Source: a virus
Taxonomy: Duplodnaviria; Caudoviricetes
Length of the DNA: 64,000 nt
Virus record (IMG/VR): IMGVR_UViG_3300023213_000432
Span: 32,001-96,000 of that record
Direction: 5' to 3' (one strand)
Below the pieces are notes generated by a model. That model did not search any database, was not told where the DNA came from, and was given only the letters and a program-made list of their open reading frames with translations. Position numbers and translations under genes: made by a program. Below, piece by piece: positions 7,030 to 57,912 of this stretch (its first letter is position 1; every line of letters starts with the position of its first letter).

Positions 7030-7051
7030 TTTGATGCATTGAAAGGATTTT

Positions 7052-7181
7052 GTTCCGGGTCGCAGTATTCGGTTATCAATAAGCCAGAGATCGTGGGTGC
7101 GAATCCCACTACCCGTAAAACGGGTATCGTCTAGAAGCCTAGGACACTGACAAATCTCCGACCACGATTTTTATCCGGGAC
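7052..7181 (+). ncRNA. yrlA: YrlA-type Y RNA (circularly permuted tRNA mimic)
   Basis: Terminal stem GTTCCGGGT/ATCCGGGAC with GGGTCGCAG Ro-site variant; T-arm GTGGG-TGCGAAT-CCCAC (7093-7109); closed acceptor hairpin TACCCG-TAAAA-CGGGTA; D-arm GTCTAGAAGCCTAGGAC; lies upstream of the Ro60 gene. Confidence 0.85.
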
Positions 7182-7208
7182 ACAATTTTGTGTTAGCACT
7201 AAAACTAA

Positions 7209-7276
7209 CTTTGGGTCGAAGTTAATTCGGTTATCACTTTTGCGATTACCTCCGAATTACGCTTACTTATCCAAAG
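7209..7276 (+). ncRNA. minimal Y RNA-like hairpin (Y2)
   Basis: CTTTGGGTCGAAG...TAATTCGG TTATCA...CCGAATTA...ACTTATCCAAAG; matches bacterial Ro-binding motif GNCGAAN0-1G; T-run follows. Confidence 0.7.
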
Positions 7277-7299
7277 CTTTTTTAAAAAAGGAAAGACAT

Positions 7300-9024
7300 A
7301 TGTCATATTCATCTCATATCAGTAAAAATCCCTCCCAAACTGAAATGGCGCGCCCAGATCAAGTCCAGAACTCGGCAGGCGGATATGTTTTTCAGGTTGA
7401 TAAATGGCAACGTTTAGATCGTTTTCTCATTCTTGGGAACGAAGGCGGCACCTATTACGCTACGGAAAAACAACTTACCTTTGAGAATGTCAAGTGCATT
7501 TCAGAATGTCTCAAAGAGGATGCTTCTCGCACCATTCATCGGATCGTGGAGATTTCGTATGCGGGGCGAGCACCTAAAAATGATCCTGCCATTTTCGCTT
7601 TGGCATTGGCAGCCTCCCATCAGGATCTCAAAGTCCGACAAGAAGCGTTATCTTATCTTCCCCAAGTATGTCGAATTGGAACTCATTTGTTCCATTTTGC
7701 TAGGGACATCGATAAACTTCGAAAGTGGTCGCGAGGTTTGAGAACCGCAGTTTCCAAATGGTATCTTCGCCGTTCCCCGGAGAGCCTTGCTCTTCAAGCT
7801 ATTAAATATCAACAGCGAGATGGATGGAGCCATCGAGATTTGCTTCGTTTGGCTCGTCCTAATCCCAAGGATTGCAAGAAGCCGGTGGATACAGCTACGC
7901 ATGCCAAGTTTGTTCAGCAGTTTGGCTCTGCCTTCCGTTGGATTGTGGATAGGGATCATCTTGGAGAACGTAAAGTCGGAGGAGAATTGAAAACCAAATC
8001 TTTTCCGATTCGGGAGTATCAAGGATACCAGAAAACAGATCTTCCGGCTTTGATTCAAGCCTTTGATCAACTTCATGCTTCTAAAGATTTAAAAGAAGTT
8101 ATCACTCTCATTCGGGAATTTAAAATGCCCCACGAAGCTGTTCCTAATGAATGGAAGGATAAACCGGAAGTTTGGGAAGCTTTACTAGAAGGAATGGGAA
8201 TTACCGCCATCATTCGTAATTTGGGAAAAATGACCAATGTTGGATTGTTAAAACCCTTGGGAAGTAATACCACTCAGGTGGTGGAAAAATTGACTAATGA
8301 AAAAGTCCTGAAAGAAGGACGCGTTCATCCCATTGCTATTCTTTTCGCTCAAAAGGTGTATGCTCAGGGACATGGAGACAAAGGAAAGCTGTCTTGGACG
8401 ACTGTTAAGCCGATCGTAGATGCTTTGGATGATGCCTTTTATTTTGCTTTCAAGACGATTCGTCCTACTGGTAAAAATCATTTGTTAGCGTTGGATGTTA
8501 GTGGATCCATGGGATGTAGCTATATTGCAGGTACTAGTTTGTCAGCTATGGAAGCTTCGGCAGCTATGGCTATGATCACTATGCGAGCTGAGCCCAATTA
8601 TCATTTGGTTGGATTTTCTAGTGCTAGTGGTGGATATGGTGGTAAGTGGGGTGGCGGACAGTCCAAGATGATAGAGATTGACATTACTAAGAAGACTCGT
8701 CTTAACACAGTGATTGAAACTGTTTCTAAAATTCCGATGGGCGGAACAGATTGCGCTTTGCCTATGCTGTATGCTATGGATAATAAGTTGGACGTAGATA
8801 CTTTTGCTATATATACTGATAGCGAGACCTGGCATGGAGACATTCATCCTTACCAAGCTTTGAAGCAGTATCGAGAAAAATCAGGACGAAATGCTAAACT
8901 GGTTGTGGTAGGAATGACGGCAACGGAATTTTCCATTGCTGCGCCTGATGATAATGGAATGCTTGATGTCGTGGGCTTTGATACTGCGGCGCCTGACATC
9001 ATGGCAAATTTTTCTATGGGATGA
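7300..9024 (+). CDS. rsr: Ro60/Rsr RNA-binding protein (TROVE + vWA)
   Basis: GGYVF..RFLILGNEGGTYYA, GRAPKNDPAIFALA, KYQQRDGWSHRDLLRL, MIDAS LDVSGSM..GGTDC..YTDSETW; start ATG 7300 after AAGGAAAG. Confidence 0.97.
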   Translation: MSYSSHISKNPSQTEMARPDQVQNSAGGYVFQVDKWQRLDRFLILGNEGGTYYATEKQLTFENVKCISECLKEDASRTIHRIVEISYAGRAPKNDPAIFALALAASHQDLKVRQEALSYLPQVCRIGTHLFHFARDIDKLRKWSRGLRTAVSKWYLRRSPESLALQAIKYQQRDGWSHRDLLRLARPNPKDCKKPVDTATHAKFVQQFGSAFRWIVDRDHLGERKVGGELKTKSFPIREYQGYQKTDLPALIQAFDQLHASKDLKEVITLIREFKMPHEAVPNEWKDKPEVWEALLEGMGITAIIRNLGKMTNVGLLKPLGSNTTQVVEKLTNEKVLKEGRVHPIAILFAQKVYAQGHGDKGKLSWTTVKPIVDALDDAFYFAFKTIRPTGKNHLLALDVSGSMGCSYIAGTSLSAMEASAAMAMITMRAEPNYHLVGFSSASGGYGGKWGGGQSKMIEIDITKKTRLNTVIETVSKIPMGGTDCALPMLYAMDNKLDVDTFAIYTDSETWHGDIHPYQALKQYREKSGRNAKLVVVGMTATEFSIAAPDDNGMLDVVGFDTAAPDIMANFSMG

Positions 9025-9046
9025 AAGGATTTAGTTCTCATTTTTC

Positions 9047-9110
9047 GCTTTGGGTCGAAGCAATTTGGTTATCAATGGACAACACCGAATTGCAACCACT
9101 TATCCAAAGC
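9047..9110 (+). ncRNA. minimal Y RNA-like hairpin (Y3)
   Basis: GCTTTGGGTCGAAGCAATTTGGTTATCA...CCGAATTGC..ACTTATCCAAAGC. Confidence 0.7.
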
Positions 9111-9124
9111 ATCTATTTTTTTTG

Positions 9125-9194
9125 GTTTCGGGTCGAATTTACTCGGTTATCAATGTTATTGAATCAATCCCGAGTAGAAACACTTATCTGAAAC
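9125..9194 (+). ncRNA. minimal Y RNA-like hairpin (Y4)
   Basis: GTTTCGGGTCGAATTTACTCGGTTATCA...CCGAGTA..ACTTATCTGAAAC; compensatory changes relative to Y2/Y3. Confidence 0.7.
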
Positions 9195-56859: not shown

Positions 56860-57912
56860 ATGTCGGATTTCAACGCCATAGTAGTTAAGCTCGGAAAGAT
56901 CGATCCGCTTCCCAATTCTGATTTTTTGGAAATCACTACTGTGATGGGGGAGTTTCCTGTAATTATTAAAAGGGGACAATATCGTGAGGGACAGCTGGTA
57001 AGCTTTATACCTCACGACGCAGTTTGTCCTGATACAAAAATGTTCCACTTCTTAGCACCTCCTCCTAAGAAAGATGCTGATGGAAATATTATTAAACCTA
57101 CGCCACCTGTAGGAGAAGTGTTGATCAAAAATCGTACTATTAGGGCCAAGAAAATACGCGGGACGTATTCGGAGGGACTTATTGTGGATGCTCCGCCTGA
57201 TTTCAAGGAAGGAGATAGTATCATTGAATATTTTGGGTTAACCAAGCGCGTTTATGAAGAAGAACTTCCTGAGCGTGGTGGGAGAAACGAAGTGGCACCA
57301 ACCACTTTCCAACTCTTCAAATATGATCTGGAAGGCTTTGCCAAGTATGGATATGTGTTTGAGGATGGCGAAGAAGTTTTGATCACCGAAAAGATTGAAG
57401 GTGAAAATTGTGCTATCGTCTATGCAGAAGATCGACTTTGGGTTAGAAGCCGTAACTGGTTTAAAAAAGACGAACCTGATAGTCATTGGTGGGAACTTCC
57501 TCGAAGGCTCAATCTAGTAGAAAAATTGAAAGAACTGCCGGAGCTGTGTTTGTTTTTAGAGTTGTATGGTGCTGTTCGGGGATGGAAATACGATTGCCAA
57601 GTTATCAACAGCAAGATCCAACGAAACGGTAGAATTTTTGATGTTTGGGACATTAAGAAGAAAAAGTTTTTGGAATGGAAAGAAGTTCAAAGCATTGCTA
57701 AGCAGATTGGAATGGAGACCGTTCCTATTTTGTATCAAGGCGGCTGGAAGACGGATCGATCTCTTCACGCTCTTGCTGAAGGTAAATCAACAATCGGAGA
57801 ATGTGTTCGTGAAGGCTGGGTAATGCGCAGTATTCCCGAAGGATGGCATGAAAAACTTGGCAGAAAGATCGTGAAACTCAAAGGAAGAGATTATAAGATT
57901 ATCAAAGGTTAA
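56860..57912 (+). CDS. ATP-dependent RNA ligase, Rnl2/DRB0094 family
   Basis: N-terminal I.PLPNSDFLE..G domain; motif I TEKIEG, III FLELYG, IIIa IFDV, IV REGWV, V KLKG. Confidence 0.88.
   Translation: MSDFNAIVVKLGKIDPLPNSDFLEITTVMGEFPVIIKRGQYREGQLVSFIPHDAVCPDTKMFHFLAPPPKKDADGNIIKPTPPVGEVLIKNRTIRAKKIRGTYSEGLIVDAPPDFKEGDSIIEYFGLTKRVYEEELPERGGRNEVAPTTFQLFKYDLEGFAKYGYVFEDGEEVLITEKIEGENCAIVYAEDRLWVRSRNWFKKDEPDSHWWELPRRLNLVEKLKELPELCLFLELYGAVRGWKYDCQVINSKIQRNGRIFDVWDIKKKKFLEWKEVQSIAKQIGMETVPILYQGGWKTDRSLHALAEGKSTIGECVREGWVMRSIPEGWHEKLGRKIVKLKGRDYKIIKG

What the first reader, a model, noticed from the sequence alone, without database searches (positions are those of the whole stretch)
7052..9194. 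Phage Ro60 gene bracketed by four Y RNAs: one YrlA tRNA mimic and three minimal hairpins with a shared GGTTATCA motif
Seen: four intergenic elements (7052-7181, 7209-7276, 9047-9110, 9125-9194) share GGGTCG(A/C)A..T(C/T)GGTTATCA..CCGA..(C/T)TTATC(C/T). Their stems covary. Terminal stems are CTTTGG/CCAAAG, GTTTCG/TGAAAC and TTCCGG/CCGGGA. Inner stems are TAATTCGG/CCGAATTA, GCAATTTGG/CCGAATTGC and TACTCGG/CCGAGTA. Each element is followed by a T-rich run. Known: bacterial Rsr binds Y RNA stems carrying GNCGAAN0-1G, and rsr loci, including some phage loci, usually carry YrlA plus one further Y RNA. Inference: this is an expanded 2+2 cassette. The three tiny RNAs keep the Ro site plus an unexplained invariant GGTTATCA. 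They could be exchangeable adaptors or gates for the phage Ro60, or decoys for host Rsr-based RNA surveillance.
Basis: partly seen in the sequence, partly recalled or inferred. Interest (0 to 1): 0.88.

Follow-up and report, generated by a model that had tools for sequence, protein, structure and literature searches.

The report
Phage Ro60 gene with four Y RNAs
A large uncultured phage carries the ring-shaped RNA-binding protein Ro60 flanked by four small partner RNAs (Y RNAs); these belong to a big, unannotated RNA family found beside Ro60 genes in phages and bacteria, and its shared "handle", including the puzzling GGUUAUC, closely matches the Y-type RNAs of nematodes and vertebrates.

Summary
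Four same-strand structured elements (7052-7181, 7209-7276, 9047-9110, 9125-9194) bracket a true Ro60 gene (7300-9024; TROVE plus Ro60-vWA).

A covariance model built from them finds about 155 relatives beside 65 of 79 viral Ro60 genes, 154 on the Ro60 strand. It finds 247 more beside 80 bacterial Ro60 genes. Covariation is strong: 93% of cells paired, against at most 52% when partners are slid.

The locus is therefore one member of a large Y RNA family, not a special "expanded" cassette. Three to five copies are common in viral loci, and bacterial loci have up to seven.

E1 is a divergent long, YrlA-like form. It keeps the handle and a T-arm, has no recognisable D-arm, and gives no hit to Rfam YrlA.

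GGUUAUC is family-wide (244 of 272 elements) and sits 12±1 nt after the bulged C. It corresponds to the published UUAUC motif of nematode stem-bulge RNAs and vertebrate Y RNAs. E3 and E4 score 34.8 and 28.3 bits on Rfam's nematode sbRNA model, and six bacterial relatives pass its threshold.

Binding, expression and function remain untested. This scan has reported similar phage and giant-virus Ro60/Y-RNA arrays on other DNA.

The parts
7052..7181 (+). E1: long Y RNA. It has the handle (Ro-site 5' strand GGGUCGCA at 7057-7064; GGUUAUCA at 7071-7078; 3' strand UUUAUCCGGGAC at the end). It also carries an inserted tRNA-like module: T-arm 7093-7109, acceptor-like hairpin 7110-7126, and a non-canonical hairpin at 7129-7145 where the D-arm would be.
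   Evidence: R2 gives 28.5 bits, E 2e-4, at exactly these coordinates. The long-type model R3 gives 39.9 bits; the T-arm aligns and the D-arm region is skipped. Rfam tRNA scores 15.7 bits on the T-arm only; there is no RF02553 hit. The GUCGCAG handle variant is shared with long forms in Verrucomicrobial loci.
7209..7276 (+). E2: minimal Y RNA hairpin, ending 23 nt before the Ro60 start codon and followed by a U6 run.
   Evidence: R2 61.3 bits. MFE -20 kcal/mol, z -4.55.
7300..9024 (+). Ro60 (TROVE + vWA) gene, 574 aa, with an AAGGA Shine-Dalgarno-like site upstream. The MIDAS motif DVSGS is intact. The residues aligned to X. laevis K170 and R174 are conserved (KYQQRDGW).
   Evidence: Pfam. PDB 1YVP at E 1.2e-123 and 2NVO at 1e-116.
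9047..9110 (+). E3: minimal Y RNA hairpin, starting 23 nt after the Ro60 stop codon and followed by a U8 run.
   Evidence: R2 69.8 bits. Rfam RF01656 (nematode sbRNA) 34.8 bits, E 8.5e-5, against a gathering score of 38.
9125..9194 (+). E4: minimal Y RNA hairpin.
   Evidence: R2 65.2 bits. RF01656 28.3 bits.
7040..7055 (+). 16-nt repeat TGAAAGGATTTNGTTC immediately 5' of the E1-E2 pair. The second copy lies at 9022-9037, 5' of the E3-E4 pair. Possibly a processing or promoter element, or a trace of duplication.
   Evidence: Two copies in the window; not statistically compelling (11 of 100 shuffles give at least 2 matches).

Best explanation
The locus is a virus-encoded Ro60 ribonucleoprotein module: one Ro60 gene plus four Y RNA genes on the same strand, probably read as one transcription unit and trimmed to the base of each terminal stem.

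Each RNA carries the same roughly 69-nt handle. It has a variable closing stem, then the Ro60-docking helix GGG(U/C)-C-G(A/G)A paired with UU(A/G)(U/C)CC and a bulged C. Next comes a 3'-side internal loop and an upper stem of about 9 bp closed by GG:CC. A single-stranded UUA(U/C)C follows, 12±1 nt after the bulged C.

Ro60 is inferred to bind this handle on its outer surface, as in the frog Ro60-Y RNA structure. E1 adds a tRNA-like T-arm module that would recruit a partner, by analogy PNPase or a tRNA-recognising factor. E2-E4 carry only a small loop. They most likely act as default lids or stabilisers of Ro60, or as minimal adaptors.

The GG of GGUUAUC closes the upper stem. I infer that UUAUC is a fixed-distance second recognition or hinge element of the Ro60 particle itself. 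It is conserved whatever cargo the RNA carries, and it is also found in animal Y RNAs and sbRNAs.

Shown here: the sequence family, the structure by covariation, the linkage to Ro60 and the motif conservation. Inferred: transcription, processing, binding and function.
For: Ro60 identity: Pfam vWA_Ro60 1.4e-64 and TROVE 9e-47; 1YVP E 1e-123. The residues aligned to X. laevis K170 and R174 are kept; their role in Y RNA binding is from my memory of Sim et al. 2009.

Family and linkage: model R2 gives 155 hits at E<=0.1 in the window plus 79 viral Ro60 loci, with 154 on the Ro60 strand, and 65 of 79 viral loci have at least one hit. There are 247 hits at E<=0.01 in 80 bacterial Ro60 loci. No other hit occurs in the window; R1 found none elsewhere in the 198-kb record. 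No flanking protein is conserved with Ro60, only the RNAs.

Structure: 93.3% of cells are paired, against 33-52% for slid partners. There are 241 double-sided changes against 36-67, and 18 of 20 pairs show compensatory change.

The known phage YrlA locus of mycobacteriophage ScottMcG gives three R2 hits, the middle one overlapping the sub-threshold Rfam YrlA hit.

Motif: GGUUAYC-type in 244 of 272 unique elements. Spacing from the bulged C is 12 nt in 181 of 249 and 11-13 nt in 232 of 249, the same spacing as in the RF01656 consensus.

Similarity to sbRNA: E3 scores 34.8 and E4 28.3 bits. Six bacterial relatives score 38.0-45.0 bits against a gathering score of 38. The alignment covers both helix strands and UGGGUUAUCA.

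The Ro-site variant is more uniform within a locus than shuffling predicts: 56 of 83 loci against a shuffled mean of 38.9 and maximum of 50.

Literature: phage Ro60 binds adjacent Y-like RNAs and host PNPase in vitro (PMC12135203). Bacterial Y RNAs lie next to rsr on the same strand (PMC4201824).
Against: There is no direct evidence of transcription, discrete RNA ends or binding for this locus.

Strict GNCGAAN0-1G is met only by E2 and E3.

None of the four elements reaches any Rfam gathering score, and E1 has no RF02553 hit even at E<=10.

The covariation counts come from a model-fitted alignment, which leans towards the structure.

The within-locus uniformity of the Ro site could reflect recent duplication rather than co-adaptation with Ro60.

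The proposed role of UUAUC as a Ro60 contact or hinge has no structural support. The published frog complex holds only the lower stem, and in nematodes UUAUC was tied to DNA replication activity, not to Ro60 (PMC4726728).

The host and even the phage status of the record are inferred. No capsid, terminase or sheath gene was found in the 46%-complete fragment.
Confidence: 0.82

Rival explanations
1. The elements are mainly cis-acting parts of the Ro60 mRNA, not stand-alone small RNAs. They would be a leader (E1, E2) and a trailer (E3, E4) that Ro60 binds to autoregulate its own translation or stability, or that act as terminators or attenuators.
For: E2 ends 23 nt before the start codon and E3 starts 23 nt after the stop codon. 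U-runs follow E2-E4. No sigma-70-like site lies between the elements and the gene. In many loci the proximal copy ends 20-70 nt before Ro60, and in L057 its 3' stem abuts the GGAGG ribosome-binding site.
Against: Arrays of up to 5-7 copies extend more than 1.5 kb from the gene, with tRNA genes interspersed. Some copies lie 2-4 kb away, as in L055 and L065. In Salmonella and D. radiodurans, co-transcribed Y RNAs are processed into stable Rsr-bound RNAs (PMC4201824; 10.1101/312249). The ribosome-binding site of the window's Ro60 is not sequestered by E2.
Confidence: 0.1
2. The RNAs are decoys aimed at the host's own Rsr/Ro60 surveillance. They would soak up host Rsr rather than serve the phage protein.
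For: The handle is similar between phage and bacterial loci, so cross-binding is conceivable.
Against: The RNAs are tied to a phage-encoded Ro60 in 65 of 79 viral loci. The Ro-site variant tends to be locus-specific. The host is unknown. No example of a Y RNA array without a Ro60 gene was looked for or seen here.
Confidence: 0.05
3. The elements are chance hairpins, generic repeats or decayed tRNA genes with no specific function.
For: ARAGORN and the Rfam gathering thresholds find nothing. E1 contains a T-arm-like hairpin.
Against: The pattern occurs 4 times with 0 expected. There are hundreds of covarying relatives, strictly on the Ro60 strand.
Confidence: 0.01

Closest known systems
Bacterial and phage YrlA/YrlB Y RNAs (Salmonella, M. 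smegmatis, mycobacteriophages; Chen et al. 2014, PMC4201824; Rfam RF02553)
   Same: They are encoded within a few hundred nt of Ro60/rsr on the same strand. They have a GNCGAA-type 5' motif in a stem formed by the two RNA ends. The long form carries T-arm, acceptor-like stem and D-arm in that permuted order. Model R2 also hits the YrlA locus of mycobacteriophage ScottMcG.
   Different: Here both strands of the Ro helix are conserved. The literature states that only the 5' strand is recognisable in YrlA RNAs. E1 lacks a D-arm and has a UGCGAAU T-loop. None of the four hits RF02553. Three of the four have no tRNA-like part at all.
Nematode stem-bulge RNAs and vertebrate Y RNAs (Rfam RF01656; Kowalski et al. 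2015, PMC4450293; Kowalski & Krude 2015, PMC4726728)
   Same: The architecture matches: lower stem with a bulged C in a GGUC-C-G / UUGACC-type helix, a 3' internal loop (CACCAACUUG...), an upper stem closed by GG(G), and UUAUC at the 5' end of the loop at the same 12-nt spacing. E3 and E4 score 34.8 and 28.3 bits, and six relatives score 38-45 bits on RF01656.
   Different: These are prokaryotic-virus and bacterial genes beside Ro60, not Pol III genes. They are much shorter (64-70 nt against about 130 model positions) and have no long pyrimidine-rich loop. The vertebrate Y_RNA model gave no hit. Whether the likeness is homology or convergence on the same protein surface is not decided.
Thermus phage phiLo Ro60 with Yrl1/Yrl2 (PMC12135203; PDB 9KOP, 9L5Y)
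   Same: A phage Ro60 with hairpin Y-like RNAs carrying CGAA just upstream of the gene. Binding to the phage Ro60 and to host PNPase was shown in vitro, which gives the best functional precedent.
   Different: phiLo has two RNAs, both upstream. No GGUUAUC or sbRNA-like features were mentioned in the text I searched. I did not test R2 on phiLo, which was not among the tblastn hits.
D. radiodurans Yrn1/Yrn2 with Rsr and PNPase (RYPER)
   Same: It is described as 'metazoan-like' in keeping both helix strands. The Y RNA tethers Rsr to PNPase. Several RNAs are encoded beside rsr.
   Different: The D. radiodurans genome gives no RF01656 hit in the control search, so the family described here is closer to the nematode model than Yrn1 is.

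Membership tests
Y RNA (Ro60 partner RNA, general) | Encoded beside a Ro60/Rsr gene, on the same strand (the criterion of Chen et al. 2014: within 4 kb) | tested here: met
   All four lie within 250 nt of the Ro60 CDS on the + strand. 154 of 155 family hits are on the Ro60 strand.
Y RNA (Ro60 partner RNA, general) | 5' and 3' ends pair into a long stem containing the conserved Ro60-binding helix with a bulged C | tested here: met
   Folds. Covariation: 93.3% paired and 241 double-sided changes, against at most 67 for slid partners. The helix is GGGU-C-GA / UU-AUCC in all four elements.
Y RNA (Ro60 partner RNA, general) | Physically bound by Ro60 and stabilised by it | not testable with these tools
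   The complex predictor does not take RNA. Only indirect support exists: the K170 and R174 equivalents are conserved.
Y RNA (Ro60 partner RNA, general) | Expressed as a discrete small RNA | not testable with these tools
   No sequencing run was listed for this DNA.
YrlA (Rfam RF02553) | GNCGAAN0-1G near the 5' end | tested here: not met
   E1 reads GUCGCAG, one base off. E2 and E3 meet it, and E4 (GUCGAAUU) does not. In the family this position is A or G, or C in the long forms.
YrlA (Rfam RF02553) | T-arm (GGUUCGAAUCC type) followed by an acceptor-like stem-loop | tested here: met
   E1 7093-7109 has the stem GUGGG/CCCAC with loop UGCGAAU, then a hairpin at 7110-7126. It aligns to the T-arm of R3 and to the Rfam tRNA T-arm at 15.7 bits.
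YrlA (Rfam RF02553) | D-arm (GUAGCUCAGUGGUAGAGC type) after the acceptor-like stem | tested here: not met
   E1 has the hairpin GUCUAG-AAGC-CUAGGAC without the GG of a D-loop. R3 skips this region (compare).
YrlA (Rfam RF02553) | Score at or above the Rfam gathering score (69 bits) | tested here: not met
   No hit at E<=10 in a 261-nt search. Bona fide phage YrlA loci reach only 33-42 bits, so the model is narrow.
Nematode sbRNA (Rfam RF01656) / metazoan Y RNA | Score at or above the gathering score (38 bits) | tested here: not met
   E3 scores 34.8 and E4 28.3 bits, with no hit for E1 or E2. Six bacterial family members reach 38.0-45.0 bits.
Nematode sbRNA (Rfam RF01656) / metazoan Y RNA | UUAUC at the 5' end of the loop, directly after the upper stem | tested here: met
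   Present in all four elements and in 244 of 272 family members. It has the same 12-nt spacing as the RF01656 consensus. The motif is defined in PMC4450293.
Nematode sbRNA (Rfam RF01656) / metazoan Y RNA | Eukaryotic Pol III gene with a 3' oligo-U tail bound by La | tested here: not met
   The context is a prokaryote-type viral record, with PHROG hits and a Shine-Dalgarno-like site before Ro60. U-runs follow E2-E4, but as bacterial terminator-like tracts.

The most novel reading that the evidence does not exclude
The minimal Ro60-linked RNAs of phages and bacteria are true homologues of animal Y RNAs and nematode stem-bulge RNAs. Ro60 and its RNA handle, including UUAUC at a fixed 12-nt distance from the bulged C, would be one ancient co-inherited or co-transferred unit, possibly moved between domains by viruses. 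UUAUC would be a universal element of the Ro60 particle rather than a eukaryote-specific DNA-replication motif. This contradicts published statements that bacterial Y RNAs keep only the 5' strand and are not homologous to vertebrate Y RNAs.
Probability: 0.35. Interest if true: 0.75.

Novelty: new variant of a known kind. Interest (0 to 1): 0.58.

Why it matters
Ro60-Y RNA particles are a conserved but poorly understood RNA surveillance system and a major human autoantigen. Their best mechanistic models come from bacteria.

This locus is a compact, natural minimal set: one protein, one tRNA-like Y RNA and three 64-70-nt Y RNAs. It could make two questions directly testable. What does a Y RNA without an effector module do? 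What does the conserved UUAUC do?

The family behind it has hundreds of members beside Ro60 in phages, Verrucomicrobiota, Chloroflexota and Myxococcota. The only Rfam model that detects it is one for nematode sbRNAs, so these genes are currently unannotated or liable to be mislabelled.

Phage Ro60-like proteins have been linked to counter-defence: Bas63 gp130 against the ppl system (bioRxiv 10.1101/2024.10.10.617714). Their RNAs may therefore matter for phage-host conflict.

Tried and rejected
- Rfam at gathering thresholds on the whole window gave nothing. ARAGORN found no tRNA or tmRNA.
- blastn against GenBank phages found only weak matches within the Ro60 coding region, and none for another 7-kb stretch of the window.
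- Public sequencing runs: none was listed for this DNA, and no RNA holder was listed. Expression could not be examined.
- Phage or giant-virus hallmark searches in the 198-kb record all found nothing: NCLDV capsid, terminase N and C domains, and tail sheath. 'Phage' rests on the IMG/VR classification, PHROG hits (helicase/primase, HNH, RNA ligase, protease), the Shine-Dalgarno-like site and the phage-like relatives.
- I looked for a conserved protein neighbour of Ro60, using seven flanking ORFs against all loci. There were no hits.
- I tested whether UUAUC is simply the 5' strand of a conserved hairpin. A stem of at least 4 bp starting at the Y of YC is not enriched (14% against 9-14% in controls). 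A stem starting at the first U occurs in 37%. UUAUC is therefore not universally paired, and I rejected a purely structural explanation.
- MAFFT alignments of the short elements (A2) and of all long elements (A7) misaligned the 3' strands. I used model-fitted alignments and a cleaner subset (A8) instead.
- The Annual Review on bacterial Ro60 (PMC10870794) and the supplements of Chen et al. 2014 were not available. I could not check whether UUAUC is visible in their alignments.
- I did not send a complex-prediction job, because the tool does not model RNA.
Full report
**What is there**

The window is bases 32001-96000 of a 198,652-bp IMG/VR viral record estimated 46% complete. It has about 39% GC, and nearly all genes are on one strand. 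PHROG hits include DNA helicase/primase, HNH endonuclease, an RNA ligase and a protease.

No capsid, terminase or sheath gene was found in the fragment. "Huge phage" is therefore likely but not proven.

At 7300-9024 (+) lies a 574-aa protein with Pfam vWA_Ro60 (1.4e-64) and TROVE (9e-47). It is as close to frog Ro60 (1YVP, E 1e-123) as to D. radiodurans Rsr (2NVO, E 1e-116). It has an intact DVSGS MIDAS motif. The residues aligned to frog K170 and R174 are conserved; their role in Y RNA binding is recalled from the literature, not tested here.

**The four elements**

- The combined pattern GGTCGMA-N4-12-GGTTATC occurs four times in 64 kb, with none expected.
- The short elements fold well below shuffled controls.
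- Each has a closing stem and then GGGU-C-GA paired with UU-AUCC, leaving a bulged C.
- Next come a 3'-side internal loop and an 8-9-bp upper stem closed by GG:CC, then UUAUCA opening the apical loop.
- E2 and E3 are close paralogues, with identical closing stems. Within-window covariation is therefore modest.

**The family**

I built model R1 from E2-E4 and searched 79 viral contigs encoding Ro60 relatives of 36-54% identity. It found 81 hits. I rebuilt it as R2 from 42 of them.

R2 finds 155 hits at E<=0.1, 154 on the Ro60 strand.

Copies per viral locus:

| Copies | Loci |
|---|---|
| 0 | 14 |
| 1 | 18 |
| 2 | 28 |
| 3 | 9 |
| 4 | 6 |
| 5 | 5 |

Several of the empty loci are truncated at the gene. 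Only the window has copies on both sides of Ro60.

In 80 bacterial Ro60 loci there are 247 hits at E<=0.01, up to seven within 2.5 kb upstream. These loci are mostly Verrucomicrobiota, Chloroflexota and Myxococcota, some inside multi-megabase contigs.

On the 42-sequence alignment, 93.3% of cells pair, against 33-52% when partners are slid. There are 241 double-sided changes against 36-67, and 18 of 20 pairs show compensatory change. The caveat is that this alignment was fitted to the model's structure.

No flanking protein is conserved with Ro60. The conserved unit is Ro60 plus these RNAs.

**Relation to known bacterial Y RNAs**

Chen et al. 2014 (PMC4201824) found YrlA RNAs near Ro60 in 254 bacteria and 22 phages.

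In mycobacteriophage ScottMcG, R2 hits three elements just upstream of the annotated Ro gene, in the order short, long, short. The long one overlaps a sub-threshold Rfam YrlA (RF02553) hit. The family therefore includes YrlA as its long form.

Long members typically insert a T-arm, an acceptor-like hairpin and a D-arm, in that order, after the UUAUC region. Others carry unrelated hairpins.

E1 has the T-arm (loop UGCGAAU) and the acceptor-like hairpin. Where the D-arm should be, it has a hairpin without the D-loop GG.

On R3, a model of canonical long forms, E1 scores 39.9 bits. The short elements score 24.6-28.5 bits, and canonical long forms outside the seed score 43-67 bits. The E1 T-arm aligns and the D region is skipped.

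E1 gives no RF02553 hit at all. Its GUCGCAG handle variant is the one used by long forms in Verrucomicrobial loci. E1 is thus a divergent YrlA-like RNA, not a canonical tRNA mimic.

**GGUUAUCA**

The motif is not peculiar to this phage. It is GGUUAUC in 178 unique elements, GGUUACC in 35 and GAUUAYC in 31, making 244 of 272 in all. It sits 12 nt after the bulged C in 181 of 249 elements, and 11-13 nt after it in 232 of 249.

The same UUAUC, at the 5' end of the loop directly after the upper stem, is described as highly conserved in nematode stem-bulge RNAs. It is also reported in vertebrate Y RNAs, and is required for sbRNA activity in a DNA replication assay (PMC4450293, PMC4726728).

Rfam's nematode sbRNA model RF01656 aligns E3 at 34.8 bits (E 8.5e-5) and E4 at 28.3 bits. 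The alignment runs across both helix strands and UGGGUUAUCA. Six bacterial relatives exceed its gathering score of 38, with 38.0-45.0 bits. In the L137 relative even the 3' strand reads CACCAACUUGUCCG, against the nematode consensus CACCAACUUGACCG. D. radiodurans gives no such hit, and the vertebrate Y_RNA model gives none.

**Is UUAUC simply part of a hairpin?**

A stem of at least 4 bp starting at the first U occurs in 37% of elements, against 10-14% at other offsets.

A mini-stem of at least 3 bp that includes the C, capped by a 7-nt loop, occurs in 98 of 244 elements, against 21±4 in shuffles. Of those loops, 52 read YU-NNN-RR like an anticodon loop, against 0.7 expected.

Of the window's four elements, only E4 shows such a mini-stem. 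Pairing therefore cannot explain the sequence conservation.

Three facts point to the one common partner, Ro60, or to a conserved hinge geometry. The spacing to the Ro site is fixed. The motif is conserved whatever the cargo. And it is also present in animal Y RNAs. This is inference and has no structural support yet.

**Mechanism proposed**

- The five genes are packed with 23-28-nt gaps on one strand. Only a weak promoter-like site lies upstream of E1, and none lies between the elements. Co-transcription and trimming to stable, Ro60-protected RNAs is likely, as in Salmonella and D. radiodurans (literature).
- Ro60 binds the handle. E1's T-arm module recruits a partner. E2-E4, which have only 16-23-nt loops, most plausibly act as lids or stabilisers of Ro60 or as minimal adaptors.
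- Phage Ro60 binding to adjacent Y-like RNAs and to host PNPase has been shown for Thermus phage phiLo (PMC12135203).
- A Ro60-like protein of phage Bas63 counters a defence system.
- The Ro-site variant is more uniform within loci than shuffling predicts: 56 of 83 loci against a mean of 38.9. This fits co-adaptation with the cognate Ro60, or recent duplication.

**Rivals**

- A purely cis-regulatory leader and trailer of the Ro60 mRNA is possible for E2 and E3. It fits poorly with arrays that stretch kilobases and interleave with tRNA genes.
- A decoy for host Rsr has no specific support.
- Chance is excluded.

**Verdict**

This is a real, well-supported Ro60/Y-RNA module in a probable huge phage. 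The kind is known. The locus is a new member, and the family it reveals is a variant not described in the papers I could search. That variant consists of minimal, sbRNA-like Y RNAs with both helix strands and UUAUC conserved.

This scan has already reported comparable phage and giant-virus Ro60/Y-RNA arrays on other DNA. I reached the same picture independently here.

Noticed in passing
Family-wide (e.g. L066:4566-4632, L131:2340-2408, L165:2690-2821); window E4 9146-9163 only weakly: In about 40% of family members the YC of UUAYC starts a 3-6-bp mini-stem capped by a 7-nt loop with an anticodon-loop signature (C-U-N-N-N-A-A, e.g. CUGUUAA, CUUGAAA). This occurs in 98 of 244 elements against 21±4 in shuffles, and 52 loops fit YU-NNN-RR against 0.7 expected. 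It may be the 'V' stem-loop of YrlA, but the anticodon-like loop was not mentioned in the texts I read.
   Followed up: partly
L137:2257-2328, L131:2339-2408, L098:2346-2415, L147:2140-2209, L139:330-398, L090:2331-2401: Short RNAs directly upstream of bacterial Ro60 genes (Verrucomicrobiota and Chloroflexota MAGs) pass the Rfam gathering score of the nematode family RF01656, with 38.0-45.0 bits. Automatic annotation would label them nematode sRNAs.
   Followed up: partly
L163 (Mycobacterium phage ScottMcG) 2583-2657, 2681-2826, 2859-2930: There are three family hits in the unannotated 480-nt gap before the annotated Ro gene. Two short hairpin Y RNAs flank the YrlA-like one, and none is annotated in the GenBank record. 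Similar unannotated sets occur in Gordonia phage Cashline, Microbacterium phage FuzzBuster and Streptomyces phage Beuffert.
   Followed up: partly
window 7040-7055 and 9022-9037: A 16-nt repeat, TGAAAGGATTT(T/A)GTTC, sits immediately 5' of each RNA pair. The second copy overlaps the Ro60 stop codon. It could be a processing or promoter signal or a duplication scar. It is not statistically compelling on its own.
   Followed up: partly
window 56860-57912 (+): A 350-aa ORF matches PHROG RNA ligase families (phrog_968, 1.4e-23) about 48 kb downstream of Ro60. In bacteria Ro60 is often linked to RNA repair (rsr-rtcBA), so the phage may carry an RNA-repair toolkit, though not as one operon.
   Followed up: no
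window 7300-9024, residue aligned to frog Ro60 H187: The residue aligned to frog H187 is arginine in the phage protein, while the K170 and R174 equivalents are conserved. From memory, H187 is a central-cavity residue important for binding misfolded RNA. The significance is unknown.
   Followed up: no
L055:1009-1434, L062:1049-1492, L016:6439-6663: Several related viral contigs carry tmRNA genes (standard or permuted) and large tRNA arrays within a few kb of the Ro60/Y-RNA cluster. The window's own 64 kb has no tRNA, though the 198-kb record has six elsewhere.
   Followed up: no
L098, L090, L093 and window E1: Within one locus, two handle subtypes coexist. Long tRNA-like forms use GGGUCGCAG...UUAUCCG, while short forms use GGG(C/U)CGAAG. 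E1 shares the long-form subtype with Verrucomicrobial loci. This hints that long and short forms are old, separately maintained lineages.
   Followed up: partly
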